From: Eledone cirrhosa
Lineage: Eukaryota
Length of the DNA stretch: 64,000 bases
Reading direction: 5' to 3'
NCBI GenBank assembly: GCA_964016885.1
Contig: OZ024743.1
Location: forward strand, 4,588,001 to 4,652,000
The position numbers and the translations under genes were made by a program. The notes beneath the pieces were generated by a model. That model searched no databases. It saw nothing but the letters and a program-made list of their open reading frames with translations, and had not been told where the DNA came from. This document shows positions 689-22,082 of the stretch, one piece after another. Position 1 is the stretch's first letter; each line of letters starts with the position of its first letter.

Positions 689-748
689 TTTCATGCTGAT
701 GACTGAAAGCAAATTTGTTTGCTTTCAAGAAACCACTGGTAAATGAAA
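689..748 (+). ncRNA. Type I hammerhead ribozyme motif
   Basis: tttcatg-CTGATGA-c-tgaaagcaaa/tttgctttca-a-GAAA-CC-act-GG-TA|aatgaaa; one mismatch at base of stem I. Confidence 0.7.
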
Positions 749-793
749 TAATTATCTCATGTTGTTTATTACATAACTATATATATAAAAAAT

Positions 794-1275
794 TAGAATT
801 GGTGCTCTGAAATAGTGATATATATATATGAATGTATATATAGTGTATTTTGTAATACACTGTATGCTTAATTAAAAGCATTTCGAAGACCTTACGCAAT
901 TGTTTTAGAGTAGTGACAGTCTCACTTACTTTAAATTTTCAGCAAACAGGGGAGATAAAGCTGACAGAGCTCTGTTTCGTACTTTTTGGTACTTATCAAA
1001 GCTAACTACTCCACCTGTTTGCTGAAAATCATGAATGTTTGATTCTTATAGAAATCTAGTAATAATCAGGAACTGATTATACAGAGCGGTTGCCGGTCAA
1101 GCAGAAATTGAAAATGAGAATTGGTGCTCTGAAATAGCGATATATATATATGAATGTATATATAGTGTATTTTGCAATACACTGTATGCTTAATTGAAAG
1201 CATTTCGAAGACCTTGCGCTATTGTTTTAGAGTAGTGACAGTCTAATTTACTTTAAATTTTCAGCAAATAGGGGA
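794..1275. repeat. ~160-bp direct repeat (about 794-954 and 1117-1275) bracketing a hammerhead hairpin; pLTR-like
   Basis: agaattggtgctctgaaatag...ttaaattttcagcaaa(c/t)aggggag present twice. Confidence 0.85.
935..1028 (-). ncRNA. Type I hammerhead ribozyme with U3-A8 core variant
   Basis: Minus strand: agct-TTGATAA-GTAC-caaaaa-GTAC-GAAA-CAGAGCTCTG-TC|agct, with stem I extended by ttttcagcaaacagg/cctgtttgctgaaaa. Confidence 0.75.
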
Positions 1276-1403
1276 GTGTATTGCAAAATCTTAGGTCGTG
1301 CATGTTAAGTGTATGTTAATTATACTATATATTTTTAGGTTTTATATCCAATAGGACGAAGTAAGTGTATAACAACAACAAACAAACAAAAACATTAACA
1401 ATG

Positions 1404-2737
1404 AAATAACAACGATTTATCGATCAGGGATACCAGTGACTAAATAAGAAATTATAGAAATTTTATGGCAGATCCTTAAATTAATGTTGAGTTCAAGAAC
1501 TTTTAAAACCAATAAATATCTATTTATTTAAAGTAATTCAGAGACAATGCTAAACAATAAAGTCTGCATTATCGAAGACGTTTACGGACAGTATGATGAA
1601 AATAACTTCAAAGACTGCAATACAATAATATCAGAAGAACTGATTATCTTTTGGCCACAAATACACAGGAATACTATGCTTTACATAAATTGAATACAAT
1701 AAAAGATTTGGCTTCAATGAAAATTAATATATTTGAAAGCAACGATAAAGTTGCAATTGTTTCATGTTTTCTTCATTCCGGAAGCGTAATATATATAGAA
1801 TTGTTATTCTATAGTGGCTACTCTTGTTTTCATCAATACTATATTATTCTATTCATATAAGTATGTGTGTGTAGCTGTATATATATATATATATAAACGG
1901 AAAAAATGAAACGAAATTTCATTTCTCACTCTTAGTACGGCTGTTACTTAAATATAAGTATGTATACGTACATACATATATGTATACAGACGTACAGTAG
2001 TATGTATATATATATATATACATACATTCACACATTTATATATGTATGTATGGATTCACCGAACATTTATTATAATGCTCGGTGTGTTTGTAAACAAACA
2101 TCCCGTATTAAGCCGTACAGTGTCTAGCAACCATCGTTGCTCATTTGTTCAACACTGACAAAGGAACGCTGTACTAGTTTCAAGCTTATTAGCTATCGTC
2201 AGTAACGTATACCTTCCTGCCAGATGATTGAACGTCTGAAAGTATATACTTTCCTTATACATATTAACGGCTGAGCAACCTAATTTGCATATCGAGTGAG
2301 TTAATTGATGAAAACAAGAGTAGCCACTATAGAATAACAATTCTATATATATTATGCTTCCGGAATGAAGAAAACATGAAACAATTGCAACTTTATCGTT
2401 GCTTTCAAATATATTAATTTTCATTGAAGCCAAATCTTTTATTGTATTCAATTTATGTAAAGCATAGTATTCCTGTGTATTTGTGGCCAAAAGATAATCA
2501 GTTCTTCTGATATTATTGTATTACAGTCTTTGAAGTTATTTTCATCATACTGTCCGTAAACGTCTTCGATAATGCAGACTTTATTGTTTAGCATTGTCTC
2601 TGAATTACTTTAAATAAATAGATATTTATTGGTTTTAAAAGTTCTTGAACTCAACATTAATTTAAGGATCTGCCATAAAATTTCTATAATTTCTTATTTA
2701 GTCACTGGTATCCCTGATCGATAAATCGTTGTTATTT
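1404..2737. repeat. ~430-bp near-perfect inverted repeat (1404-1837 vs 2304-2737), Penelope-like inverted pLTR
   Basis: Same MATNTQEYY... pseudo-ORF on both strands; arms nearly identical. Confidence 0.9.
2164..2212 (-). ncRNA. Type I hammerhead ribozyme motif
   Basis: acgtta-CTGACGA-t-AGCT-aata-AGCT-t-GAAA-CTAG-TA|cagcgt. Confidence 0.65.
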
Positions 2738-2860
2738 ATTGATTACTCAATGAATATAGTTTAACAATAGATTAAAAGCACTCTACATTGAAGTTTTCTG
2801 GAGTTATTAATATTATTCAAAATATTAATAAATGAAGACGTTCACATAATCAAAATATAT

Positions 2861-2923
2861 GTTTTATTATATATATTTCGGAGGTACTGTGCTGTTTTTT
2901 CGGTACGTCGTCGTCAGATAAAA
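2861..2923 (-). ncRNA. Hammerhead ribozyme, left arm (stem II partly decayed)
   Basis: ttttat-CTGACGA-...cagtacctcc-GAAA-TATATA-TA|ataaaa. Confidence 0.6.
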
Positions 2924-3006
2924 TACATGAATTGATGTATGACATACCTCAACTGTCTTGATGGTTCAATTCCAGTATACTGACTACCAATACAGGAATT
3001 CATGTA

Positions 3007-19028: not shown

Positions 19029-20029
19029 GTTCCTGTAACCCCCAACATTTATTCGAAAAGAAACGTTTAACTTGCCTTAATGTTTGTTTAATGTAGCCAT
19101 ATGTTTAATTTGCCACAGACCAATATGGCGTACTATAGAGACAGTCATATCTTTGACACAGAAATCATCTAGTGACATAAACTGGCCTTTCTCTAGCGTG
19201 CCATCAAGTGAACGTCATATCTTTACATCACTTCCCAGCGATCAATAGAAGTGAGGAAGAATATAATATATAGAAGGAAGGAAAGAAAGAAGGAAAGAAA
19301 GAAAGAAAGAAATGAAGAGAGGTTCTCTGATAAGCTGTAACTTTTTAGTTGAGCTTATTTTTGAGACACCCTTCTATCATCAGTCCTATATGTGGCTGAT
19401 CATCTCATGTGTTCTAGGTTTCCCATTGCGTCACAATGAAAGACATGTGTAAGTCCAACGCCCCCGGAGTTGTTGTCACATAATATAGAATACAGTCTTT
19501 CTTTGCCCTCGACTGTTGTTTATCATTTTCAAGAGAAAAAAAAATGAAGAAAAAGAAAACATATAGCTGAAACATTAAAATAAAAGAAGATACATAAAAT
19601 AAAAATAGTACGAATAAATAAACAGAGCTTTCTGAAATATCGCTAGTGTTTTAACTAAAGTGGTCTGAGAATGATAGATAACCATAACTTTCATACTGGT
19701 GTTAAAGTCATTCCTTAAAAAGATGCACGCCTGCTCCACTTCAACAAGAGTGATCATTGTAAGTTTGAAATCGTTGGATACTAGTCAGTACCTCTTATTA
19801 ATGATGGTCGGGGAGAGAAAGAACTGTAAGTGTTGTGGTGTAGTATGGTGTGATAGTATGTGGTGTGGTGAAATGTGGTGTTGTTTGTAAATATGTGTAT
19901 ATTCAAGAATGAATGAATGTATGTGTGTAAGTGCATATCTATATAGCGATAGTTGTTGGGGTGCATGTGTGCGGAAATGTGTGAGTGCCTATTTGTGTGC
20001 TTCATAAGAGAGCAATATTCTCAGCGAGA

Positions 20030-20300
20030 GAATATATATATATATGCATGTATTCATGGTGTATGTGAATATGTATACATACGAGTATGTCTATGTGTGT
20101 ATGTATGTATGTATATATGTATTTGTATGTGCGTATGTATGTACGTATGTATGTACGTATATATGTATGTATATATGTATATATGTATGTATGTATGTGC
20201 GTATGTGTGTACGTATGTATGTGCGTATGTACATATGTATGTATATATATGTATGTATATATGTATGTATATATGTATATATGTATGTGTGTATGTATGT
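20030..20300. repeat. Degenerate (GTAT)/(TA) low-complexity tract
   Basis: Direct reading. Confidence 0.9.
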
Positions 20301-20729
20301 AGTTATTGCATATGTGATTTTTTTTTTGTAAATATACACTCTTGCACACATAGATAGTATGTGGTTATGTATTTTTATTTGTTGATAAACGTATTCATGT
20401 GTACGTTGAGGAATATATATTTTCTGCATGTATTACATTTATATGCAGGTCTGGAAATGAAAGTTATCAATAAAGACCATACATACACATACAGACAAAC
20501 ATTTATACATATACACATATACACACAGATAAACATGCTTACACACACAGATACACACGTGCTTGTAAATGTAGATGTGTGCATACATGCATCTACACAC
20601 GTACATCGAAAAATATATTACAGTGAACATGATGTAAATATATTGGACAACTGGGAACATGATCATAAGTTCAAACACAGCTAAAGACATTCTTTTGAGC
20701 TCCTTTAACAAGGCATATATCGGCCATAT

Positions 20730-20872
20730 TGGCGGCGAATTGGCAGAATCTTTAGAACGTCGGCTAGAATGCTTTGTGGTATTCGACCCGCCTCTCTGCT
20801 CTCCGAGTTGAAATCCCGCCGAGGTCAAATTTGCTTTTCATCCATTCGAGGTCGATAAAAAAAAGTACCAGT
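20730..20872 (+). mobile_element. SINE family A (diverged, 3' truncated)
   Basis: ggcggcgaattggcagaatc...gagttgaaatcccgccgaggtcaaatttgcttttcatcc. Confidence 0.8.
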
Positions 20873-21329
20873 CTAGTAGTGAGATGGCTTCTTTCTCTAA
20901 ATCTCTTTCTCATTTCCTCTCTTTCACTTTCTATCTTTCTCTGGCAGAAATCTGACTGGAAAGGAATGGGCTCCGCCAGGCTTAAAATACCTAAGAAACG
21001 CCGTATGTCAATACGTCGTCCCTGCAAATCTATAAAGAGTTACAGGACCACACACATACATATCGGTTTTGCTTTCCAGACTCACCCTGGCTGAAAAACC
21101 TTTTCACTGCTATGGAATATACATTAATGTGTTTGTATGAGTTTGAGTATGTAGGTGTGTGTTTAGTTTCTTTCTTTCTTTTCATTTTCTAATTGTAATC
21201 ATACATAGTCTCTATTTTCTAACTCAAGCAATCTAATTAAAAAATAGAGACTAAATATGTGTGTGTGTGTGTGTGTGTGTGTGTGTGTGTGTGTGTGTGT
21301 GTGTGTGTGTGTGTGTGTATTCCAAAAGA

Positions 21330-21715
21330 TGGCAACATGAATGGACCAGTTATTTTTCTCAAAAAAATGTTTTCCGATTCCACCCTGCTCGTCCCCTCAA
21401 TCTTTCTAAATTCTCATTCTTTCGTCTAATGAAGGATTAGACGAACGAAACGTTAAGACCATCTTCCTGCTATTTCAAGTGTTAAACTAATTTATCCCTT
21501 CCATATACTTTATCGTTTGTATTGTTATTTCTATATATCCTGTATTTCTTATCACTCTTTATCTTTCTAGTTCAGCTTTTATTTCTGATTCTATCTTCTG
21601 ATAAAGGACTAGTGTCCGAAGCGTTAAGACTCGTTTCCTATAATTTGAAGCGTTAAACTAAAATATTTCTTCATCGTATTGTGTCTTTTGCTTTATTATT
21701 CCTGTTTACGTTTTA
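21330..21715 (+). mobile_element. PLE-pLTR-like repeat with two tandem decayed minimal hammerheads (about 21421-21460 and 21594-21630); same family as 48760-48975
   Basis: tctt-CTGATAA-A-GGAC-tagt-GTCC-GAAG-CG-TT|aaga; flanks align with the 48.8-kb copy. Confidence 0.7.
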
Positions 21716-21910
21716 CACACACACACACACACACACATATATATATATATATATATATATATATATATATATATAAAGATCCAGGCCCGACGGCTGAGCT
21801 CCGGCCGTTTCGACAGCTAGATCCGAACATATATATATACTACCTGAATGTGCGGTTTTCATCACTAAAGAAAGAGCCCTCAATGTGTAATCATAGAGAT
21901 AATATATTAT

Positions 21911-22082
21911 ATTGTATGAAATACATGGCACTCCGAGTTTGCCGAAGCAAGTTGATTTTACTTCGTTCTTCAGCCACCAGGGGGTCACTGCCGACAGAAG
22001 AACAAAGAAAAATCAACTTGCTTCGGGAAACTCGGAGTACCTAGGAAGGTATACGCCAATTTTCTATGTATTTCATACAATA
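21911..22082. repeat. Inverted pair of hammerhead motifs (minus about 21924-21977; plus about 21990-22045)
   Basis: Consensus of the two arms: CTGAAGA-a-CGAAGTAA..TTGCTTCG-g-GAAA-CTC-g-GAG-TA; each arm carries different lesions. Confidence 0.65.

What the first reader, a model, noticed from the sequence alone, without database searches (positions are those of the whole stretch)
689..22082. Dense field of sequence-diverse hammerhead ribozymes in (TA)n-embedded inverted repeats
Seen: more than ten type-I hammerhead-like motifs in about 21 kb (689, 959, 2164, 2861, 3007, 3421, 4454, 6944, 10997, 15672, 16856, 21421/21594, 21924/21990), mostly unrelated in their stems. Nearly all have a tiny or palindromic stem III (TATATA, CTAG, CATG, CG, CAGAGCTCTG), sit in inverted or direct repeats, and abut (TA)n. 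Known: Penelope-like element pLTRs and animal retrozymes carry such minimal hammerheads, which can cleave as dimers. Inference: many independent PLE or retrozyme families have repeatedly deposited short ribozyme-bearing cassettes into (TA)n here, forming a self-cleaving RNA layer invisible to ORF annotation.
Basis: partly seen in the sequence, partly recalled or inferred. Interest (0 to 1): 0.85.

Follow-up and report, generated by a model that had tools for sequence, protein, structure and literature searches.

The report
Penelope retroelement ends and two retrozymes
The ribozyme motifs are real but mostly worn copies: tail ends of Penelope-type jumping genes plus two small non-coding repeats that likely hitch-hike on them, all known kinds, and about as dense here as in the rest of this genome, which carries an estimated third of a million such motifs.

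Summary
Observation confirmed. All 13 cited sites (16 motifs, 12 families) belong to dispersed repeats whose other copies carry a type-I hammerhead core, with stem covariation, including C3-G8/U3-A8. Only 7 of 16 window copies keep an intact core. The field is not special: 8 intact-core motifs in 64 kb (125/Mb) against 72 in 590 kb of systematic genome samples (122/Mb; shuffles 0.23), about 3.5 x 10^5 genome-wide; only 1-11 kb is locally rich. Two families (2861/3007, 4454) are 3' ends of 5'-truncated, partly inverted Penelope-like elements with Hydra-clade motifs; 689 probably too. Two (959, 2164) are ORF-less 322- and 429-nt tandem monomers, i.e. non-LTR retrozymes, that show Penelope insertion marks: two fixed 3' ends, 5' inversion, (TA)n targets. 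Seven families are unlinked. No RNA evidence; divergent pairs are predicted to fold into long hairpins, so a 'self-cleaving RNA layer' is unsupported. Every motif type is published (Cervera 2014, 2020; Craig 2021); this scan noted the same kind in other genomes. Not found in my searches: this genome-wide number, and the insertion marks on retrozymes.

The parts
1..300 (-). 5'-truncated end (RT region) of a Hydra-type PLE ('M') that continues left out of the window; its own hammerhead lies outside the window (L043:8288-8399). End coordinate approximate.
   Evidence: tblastn to window 268-2; 97-98% identical to intact 784-aa copies with RWK, DKT, CxCx5C
491..779 (+). Family C end piece with hammerhead 684-753 (core intact, stem pairs next to core mismatched); inverted partner at L043:7927-8215, the pair separated by element M. 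Probably a PLE 3' end (one locus, L057, has a GIY-YIG region about 400 nt upstream)
780..1277 (-). Family D: 1.5 units of a 322-nt ORF-less retrozyme-type monomer; hammerhead 959-1003 with U3-A8 core (TTGATAA) and palindromic stem III CAGAGCTCTG
1404..1837 (+). Near-unique flanking DNA, original arm of a 434-bp inverted repeat
   Evidence: 3 of 3 candidates: the two arms and one 71% relative
1893..2305 (-). Family B: 409 of 429 nt of an ORF-less retrozyme-type monomer; hammerhead 2166-2208, stem III CTAG, core intact, closing pair of stem I mismatched
2304..2737 (-). Inverted copy (432 of 434 identical) of 1404-1837 joined to the 5' end of B; read as fold-back synthesis during insertion; it replaces the last ~20 nt of the family A end
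2738..2975 (-). Family A PLE 3' end, hammerhead 2857-2928 (C.C mismatch at the first pair of stem II)
2990..3115 (+). Family A inverted 5' copy, hammerhead 3002-3073, the best-preserved canonical motif (stem III TATATA)
3192..3530 (+). Family E insertion with short 5' inversion; hammerhead 3421-3475, core A9 mutated; parent not found. End approximate.
4432..4650 (-). Family F PLE 3' end; hammerhead 4454-4531 with family-wide CCGATGA core; upstream limit not mapped
6900..7135 (.). Family G divergent pair: 6944-7035 (-) with ~60-nt branched domain II and GAAG; 7095-7135 (+) internally deleted; old family (71-83% identity)
10960..11110 (-). Family H end piece; hammerhead 11002-11046 with CCGATGA core; parent not found
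15600..15740 (-). Family I, decayed hammerhead near 15665-15717 (CAAA); short inverted match at 15241-15300
16850..16975 (+). Family J, decayed hammerhead 16859-16919 (AAAA)
21320..21720 (+). Family K, two tandem units 173 nt apart, both cores mutated (21421, 21594); minimal type with extra A after A9 and stem III CG
21835..22090 (.). Family L divergent pair, both cores mutated (21925-21977 -, 21990-22040 +)
48755..49000 (+). Further family K copy outside the cited field, core intact (48854-48889)

Best explanation
The field is a pile of independent, mostly decayed retro-insertions into (TA)n: truncated 3' ends of hammerhead-bearing Penelope-like elements (shown for two families, probable for a third) and two ORF-less tandem units of 322 and 429 nt that are likely copied in by the same Penelope enzymes, probably from multimeric or circular RNA. 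Shown: family membership, covarying hammerhead fold, linkage of families A and F to RT/GIY-YIG ORFs with Hydra-clade motifs, head-to-tail monomers without ORF for B and D, two fixed 3' ends, inverted 5' copies, (TA)n at the 3' side, and a genome-wide density of about 110-120 per Mb. Inferred from published PLE work: the GIY-YIG endonuclease nicks AT-rich DNA, the RT starts at one of two internal sites near the RNA 3' end, usually stops early, and a second arm or a fold-back yields the inverted copy; because the hammerhead lies 50-250 nt from the 3' end, nearly every truncated copy keeps it, which is why hammerheads pile up. Inferred: the ribozyme works (as a dimer where stem III is weak) in the tandem source RNA, cutting unit-length RNA that for B and D would circularise; the dispersed single and inverted copies in this window are likely inert by-products.
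For: Homologous intact motifs for all 12 families. Covariation in relatives of D, 11 of 12 collected by 3' flank sequence: 4 of 4 stem II pairs and the C3-G8/U3-A8 pair (6:6) change on both sides, 0 of 500 shuffles reach the score; 8 of 9 stem II pairs in the A superfamily, whose rows were structure-scan hits. A is contiguous with a PLE ORF in independent loci L031 and L032 (74-87% over 2.3 kb), F in L265, L168, L170, L173; those ORFs have CxCx5C and CxxC-E/N-CxH. A related family beside the window has intact 784-aa ORFs with RWK and DKT in 6 of 6 fetched loci and hammerheads 3176 nt apart in L284. B: 429-nt head-to-tail units, arrays of 4-10 hammerheads (L124, L123, L050), longest ATG ORF 68 aa; 23 of 25 outer 3' ends in 18 loci fall at phases 347-354 or 407-410, and in 6 of 7 inverted pairs one arm ends at each (L123 left out as it runs off the locus). 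D: period 322, longest ATG ORF 45 aa, main arm ends at one of two sites 38 nt apart in 14 of 14 distinct loci, inverted partner segment in 11 of 14, tandem hammerheads in L181 and L187, no shared upstream sequence beyond the unit. Two RT start sites flanking the PLE 'tail' are shown in vitro in PMC11167929 (passages). Density.
Against: Seven of 12 families (E, G, H, I, J, K, L) were not tied to an ORF or to a tandem unit. C rests on one locus; my first reading that C is the pLTR of the neighbouring ORF was wrong. No cleavage, RNA or circle was observed. Minimum-energy folds of the monomers mostly do not give the three-way hammerhead, and co-folded pairs of A, B and D did not give the double-hammerhead fold. 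The enzyme that moves B and D is not identified; B and D show no sequence match to each other or to PLE ends in the window. My scan found a same-strand hammerhead within 900 nt downstream of 0 of 55 GIY-YIG loci, and 8 of 55 with variant cores; a homology search then found a U3-A8 motif in 22 of the first 25, while the 30 Pfam-picked loci were not resolved. Genome loci were the most similar copies, not a random draw.
Confidence: 0.85

Rival explanations
1. The locus is a functional, selected cluster of self-cleaving RNAs that processes or destabilises host read-through transcripts.
For: Local enrichment in 1-11 kb: 7 intact cores against about 2.6 expected in 21 kb at the genome mean; D, A+, F and H keep core and stems and C, D, F could close a short stem III as monomers (sequence).
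Against: Whole window at genome average; 9 of 16 cores damaged; mixed orientations; divergent pairs predicted to self-anneal; copies are ordinary members of families with hundreds to thousands of candidates.
Confidence: 0.05
2. B and D are not retro-mobilised circles but minisatellites grown locally from a solo pLTR by unequal crossover, then scattered by DNA-level events (one scenario in the Li et al. 2026 preprint).
For: Arrays up to 10 units exist (L050) and could have grown in place; variable internal (TA)n lengths between units.
Against: Dispersed 97-99% identical copies on many contigs run across the monomer junction, end at two fixed phases in (TA)n and carry 5' inversions, which crossover does not predict.
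Confidence: 0.07
3. The motifs are chance look-alikes produced by AT-rich inverted repeats.
For: The bare core pattern is not enriched; Rfam gives no hit at threshold.
Against: Full motif 72 against 0.23 in shuffles; covariation incl. the tertiary C3-G8 pair; fixed position in PLE 3' ends.
Confidence: 0.01

Closest known systems
Minimal hammerheads (min-HHR) of metazoan Penelope-like elements (Cervera and De la Pena 2014, PMC4209133; read: abstract, results, discussion, part of methods)
   Same: Type-I motifs with tiny palindromic helix III, an unpaired base after A9, U3-A8 core variants, many divergent families per genome, mostly single motifs from truncated PLEs, opposite-strand pairs 100-700 bp apart.
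   Different: Counts given there are about 2,000-9,000 per genome (S. mansoni, coelacanth, X. tropicalis) against an estimated 2-4.5 x 10^5 here, with different descriptors; several families here have longer stems I and III, a C4 core (F, H) or 60-85-nt domain II (G, M).
Hydra-clade PLEs (Craig et al. 2021, PMC8557442; read: passages, section 11, supplement rows), including Hydra-1_Obim from Octopus bimaculoides
   Same: C-terminal GIY-YIG, RWK and DKT motifs, CxCx5C linker, CxxC and CxH around the conserved E and N, canonical hammerhead, (TA)n targeting, inverted 5'-truncated copies and a one-sided tail.
   Different: Described as a small number of families, generally <3 kb; here unit length is 3176 nt for family M, there are many intact 784-aa ORFs and 28,792 first-look candidates for the RT query. 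No tree against the published sequences was made.
Animal non-LTR retrozymes (Cervera and de la Pena 2020, PMC7229834, passages; Li, Clavereau and Pollet 2026 preprint 10.64898/2026.07.22.740005, parts 1-3 of 5)
   Same: ORF-less, low-GC head-to-tail units of a few hundred nt, one type-I hammerhead per unit, co-occurring with PLEs; mussel units 350-390 bp.
   Different: Circular RNA and cleavage were shown there and not here. Those papers infer PLE mobilisation from co-occurrence and pLTR similarity; in the parts I read they do not report two fixed 3' ends or 5' inversions, which B and D show.
Poseidon PLE of Anolis (PAc) in vitro (PMC11167929, passages)
   Same: AT-rich target, two internal RT start sites that bracket a tail present at one end of insertions.
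   Different: Tail 30-40 nt there, 38 nt (D) and about 56 nt (B) here; PAc is autonomous; its hammerhead was dispensable for insertion in vitro.

Membership tests
Type-I hammerhead ribozyme | Core C3UGANGA9 / GAAA / UH around three stems with stem I open | tested here: met
   Family level 12 of 12; window copies 7 of 16 intact, counting U3-A8 and C4 variants
Type-I hammerhead ribozyme | Compensatory changes in stems and in the 3-8 pair | tested here: met
   D relatives; A superfamily; rows picked by structure scan
Type-I hammerhead ribozyme | Reaches an Rfam hammerhead gathering score | tested here: not met
   Best 21.7 bits against 52
Type-I hammerhead ribozyme | Self-cleavage | not testable with these tools
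   needs in vitro assay
EN+ PLE 3' end (families A, F) | Hammerhead-bearing end contiguous with RT + C-terminal GIY-YIG ORF in independent loci | tested here: met
EN+ PLE 3' end (family C) | Same linkage | tested here: inconclusive
   One locus (L057); not linked to the neighbouring ORF
EN+ PLE 3' end (E, G, H, I, J, K, L) | Same linkage | tested here: inconclusive
   No ORF link in the loci held; loci had 1.5-kb flanks and were chosen by similarity
EN+ PLE insertion architecture | 5' truncation, inverted 5' copy, one-sided tail, (TA)n target | tested here: met
   A, B, D, sample-wide
Hydra clade | CxCx5C linker; CxxC before E and CxH after N in EN | tested here: met
   M, A (L031) and F (L265) ORFs
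Hydra clade | RWK and DKT motifs, no N-terminal GxKF/Y | tested here: met
   Family M only: RWK at 46, DKT at 124, G.[KR][FY] only at 738; the A and F copies held are 5'-truncated, so untested for them
Hydra clade | Generally <3 kb | tested here: not met
   M unit 3176 nt between hammerheads (L284); a soft criterion in the paper
Hydra clade | Groups with Hydra RTs in a tree | not tested
   Reference sequences were not taken into the session
Non-LTR retrozyme (B, D) | Head-to-tail units of 150-450 nt, one type-I hammerhead each, at least two consecutive complete motifs | tested here: met
   B 429 nt (L124, L123, L050); D 322 nt (L181, L187). The window copies themselves hold one hammerhead each.
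Non-LTR retrozyme (B, D) | No coding capacity | tested here: met
   Longest ATG ORF 68 aa (B), 45 aa (D)
Non-LTR retrozyme (B, D) | Expressed as circular RNA | not testable with these tools
   No RNA holder listed for B; D not searched

The most novel reading that the evidence does not exclude
This 3-Gb animal genome (octopus-like by recall) carries roughly 3-4 x 10^5 intact-core hammerheads from dozens of families, more than any count I found in print, driven largely by still-intact Hydra-clade Penelope elements; and its ORF-less retrozymes B and D bear the Penelope integration signature (two fixed RT start sites, 5' inversion, occasional fold-back copying of host flank), giving direct genomic evidence and a ready enzyme-template pair for the open question of who mobilises animal retrozymes and from what RNA.
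Probability: 0.55. Interest if true: 0.5.

Novelty: new member of a known kind. Interest (0 to 1): 0.3.

Why it matters
As a locus it is ordinary transposon debris. As a sample of the genome it matters modestly: a hammerhead every 8-9 kb that Rfam thresholds miss, intact 784-aa Hydra-type PLE ORFs, and young (97-99% identical) retrozymes with mapped 3' ends together allow a direct test of PLE-driven retrozyme mobilisation, which the papers read still give as a hypothesis, and of what PLE hammerheads are for. The 434-bp fold-back shows that such insertions can duplicate host DNA as near-perfect inverted repeats.

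Tried and rejected
Rfam scan: no hammerhead at threshold. Core-only pattern: not above chance. First reading that hammerhead 689 is the pLTR of the ORF next to the window: rejected, since intact copies of that ORF carry a different hammerhead and no C sequence. 'Special dense field': rejected by 59 systematic 10-kb samples (60 asked, one did not exist) and 16 more (16 hits in 160 kb); no consistent rise near contig starts in those 16. Five of 70 hits were dropped by eye as false before the counts. 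Expression: no RNA holder listed for B; the one run guessed as RNA laid 0 records, three unlabelled runs held B-like contigs; neither is evidence on expression. Pfam barely detects these ORFs (GIY-YIG 19.9 bits, below cut-off, for L043; none for L031-L033). Monomer and co-fold predictions did not reproduce the active fold. The 3'-end counting script had mis-set anchors and its counts are not used; searches are. Fold-back of flank: 2 of 22 B loci (window, L050); two D loci of 17 showed flanking inverted repeats that stayed ambiguous on a wider look. Literature searches found no paper counting hammerheads in a cephalopod and none on PLE-linked inverted duplication of flanks; the library lacks most subscription papers, the supplement of PMC7229834 was unreadable and preprint supplements are closed, so prior mention there is possible. 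The Octopus vulgaris repeat paper (PMC13282606, passages) lists active Penelope families and has no occurrence of 'ribozyme'. Lunse et al. 2017 on dimer cleavage is recalled, not seen.

Full report
Setting. The window is G000:C4:4588001-4652000 of a 2,996-Mb animal genome, about 30-40% GC and rich in (TA)n and (GT)n. By recall its repeats look octopus-like; this was not tested. The only long host-like ORFs seen are an mTERF (28059-29219, -) and an ankyrin-SOCS box protein (43482-44717, +), both outside the finding.

Observation. A structure-aware scan written for this task found 8 motifs at score >=10 in the window against 0.05 in 354 block-wise dinucleotide shuffles; the core pattern alone is not enriched and Rfam reports only a sub-threshold HH9 match at 944-1013. 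For each cited site I collected homologues from the genome and aligned them: all 12 families have copies with core and three stems in register. In the window 7 of 16 motifs keep an intact core, three of these with a mismatch beside it; 9 are mutated or truncated. Family D carries U3-A8 in all copies examined, and its relatives split 6:6 between C3-G8 and U3-A8 with two-sided changes in all four stem II pairs. The A superfamily shows two-sided changes in 8 of 9 stem II pairs (these rows came from the structure scan, so this test leans towards the structure).

Is the field dense? Fifty-nine 10-kb stretches at fixed steps across the genome gave 70 hits, 65 after dropping 5 by eye (110 per Mb, bootstrap 75-149). 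A second scan that demands an intact core but allows U3-A8, C4 and long domain II gave 72 in 590 kb against 0.23 in shuffles, and 8 in the 64-kb window; 16 further stretches gave 16 in 160 kb. That extrapolates to about 3.5 x 10^5 motifs, probably a lower bound: a Neptune-like family (assigned by recall from its CxxC linker) has a U3-A8 motif in 22 of 25 loci that mostly escape the scan. The 65 motifs fall into 22 clusters at 80% identity; 52 have (TA)n within 150 nt on the 3' side. The first 10 kb of the window (6 motifs) is at the top of the sample range, the window as a whole is average.

What carries them. Families A (2857/3002) and F (4454) are 3' ends of coding elements: end, 3' region and RT/GIY-YIG fragments are contiguous in independent loci, with a CxCx5C linker and CxxC-E/N-CxH, the marks of the Hydra clade (PMC8557442 section 11; one octopus member is listed in its supplement). 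A related family M, whose truncated 5' end occupies window 1-300, has intact 784-aa ORFs with RWK and DKT and its own hammerhead about 500 nt after the stop. I first took motif 689 (family C) as M's repeat; intact M copies lack C, so C is a separate inverted pair split by M, tied to an ORF in one locus only. Families B (2166) and D (959) are different: 429- and 322-nt units in head-to-tail arrays, no ORF above 68 and 45 aa, one hammerhead per unit, young copies on many contigs. They fit the definition of non-LTR retrozymes except for RNA evidence. E, G, H, I, J, K and L remain unassigned.

How they got there. A, B and D insertions share one anatomy: a 3' end in (TA)n, a variable 5' end, often an inverted second arm, and two alternative 3' ends. 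For B, 23 of 25 ends lie at two phases about 56 nt apart, and in 6 of 7 inverted pairs each arm uses a different one; for D, 14 of 14 main arms end at one of two sites 38 nt apart. This is the PLE tail, which in vitro lies between two internal RT start sites (PMC11167929). Many B and D copies run through the monomer junction, so the template was likely multimeric or circular. In the window, B's 5' end continues into a 432/434-identical inverted copy of near-unique DNA lying 56 nt beyond its 3' end, best read as fold-back synthesis onto the flank; L050 shows a similar case. These steps are inferred from sequence; no enzyme was tested.

Do they work here? Probably not. Damaged cores, absence of intact same-strand partners of one family, and predicted annealing of divergent pairs argue that window copies are by-products. 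Against a flat dismissal: D, A+, F and H retain full motifs and might cut if transcribed. No RNA run was available.

Known or new. Cervera and De la Pena 2014 describe minimal PLE hammerheads with palindromic helix III, the extra base after A9, U3-A8 variants, single motifs from truncated PLEs and opposite-strand pairs. Retrozymes and their proposed PLE origin are in PMC7229834 and the Li 2026 preprint. Earlier notes of this scan reached the same reading in other genomes. The counts I saw in print are 2,000-9,000 minimal motifs per genome and up to 120,000 retrozyme copies in axolotl; none of nine searches gave a cephalopod count or reported PLE insertion marks on retrozymes, with the limits noted under Tried and rejected.

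Verdict. Real, correctly spotted, new members of known kinds; ordinary as a locus. Interest 0.3; the residual value is the genome-wide abundance and the testable retrozyme-PLE link.

Noticed in passing
window 14985-15140, 21775-21835, 4945-5020: Very common short (TA)n-flanked, often inverted end pieces (matches in 21, 13 and 10 of 59 random stretches) with GAAA-CGGC.. but no complete core in the window; longer copies hint at a hammerhead with long domain II.
   Followed up: partly
window 14325-14490: Another abundant inverted end piece (14 of 59 random stretches) whose relatives carry CTGATGA..GAAA; truncated here.
   Followed up: partly
L043:4614-10000 and window 1-300; L281-L286: Partial-tandem Hydra-type PLE family with many intact 784-aa ORFs and a hammerhead with an 85-nt domain II.
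   Followed up: yes
L192-L216: Second abundant PLE family with a different GIY-YIG linker and a U3-A8 hammerhead 350-720 nt after the stop in 22 of 25 loci.
   Followed up: partly
L050:1396-8853: Ten-unit array of a B subfamily arranged as a large inverted structure whose arms include about 1.1 kb of flanking microsatellite and a PLE endonuclease fragment.
   Followed up: partly
window 4454 and 11002 families: Family-wide CCGANGA (C4) core, kept although it creates a CpG; effect on activity unknown.
   Followed up: no
window 28059-29219 (-) and 43482-44717 (+): Long single-frame host-like ORFs: mTERF and ankyrin repeats with SOCS box.
   Followed up: no
window 6610-6790, 8255-8445, 15760-15960, 20730-20870, 50161-50572, 58025-58404: Copies of one SINE-like repeat, partly in tandem; label recalled, not tested.
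   Followed up: no
window 9377-9450 and 9706-9851: 24-bp x3 and 37-bp x4 tandem repeats inside a non-hammerhead insertion.
   Followed up: no
runs X5, X6 on L113:900-1800: B-like contigs occur in two other coded organisms, so the family is not confined to this assembly's organism.
   Followed up: no
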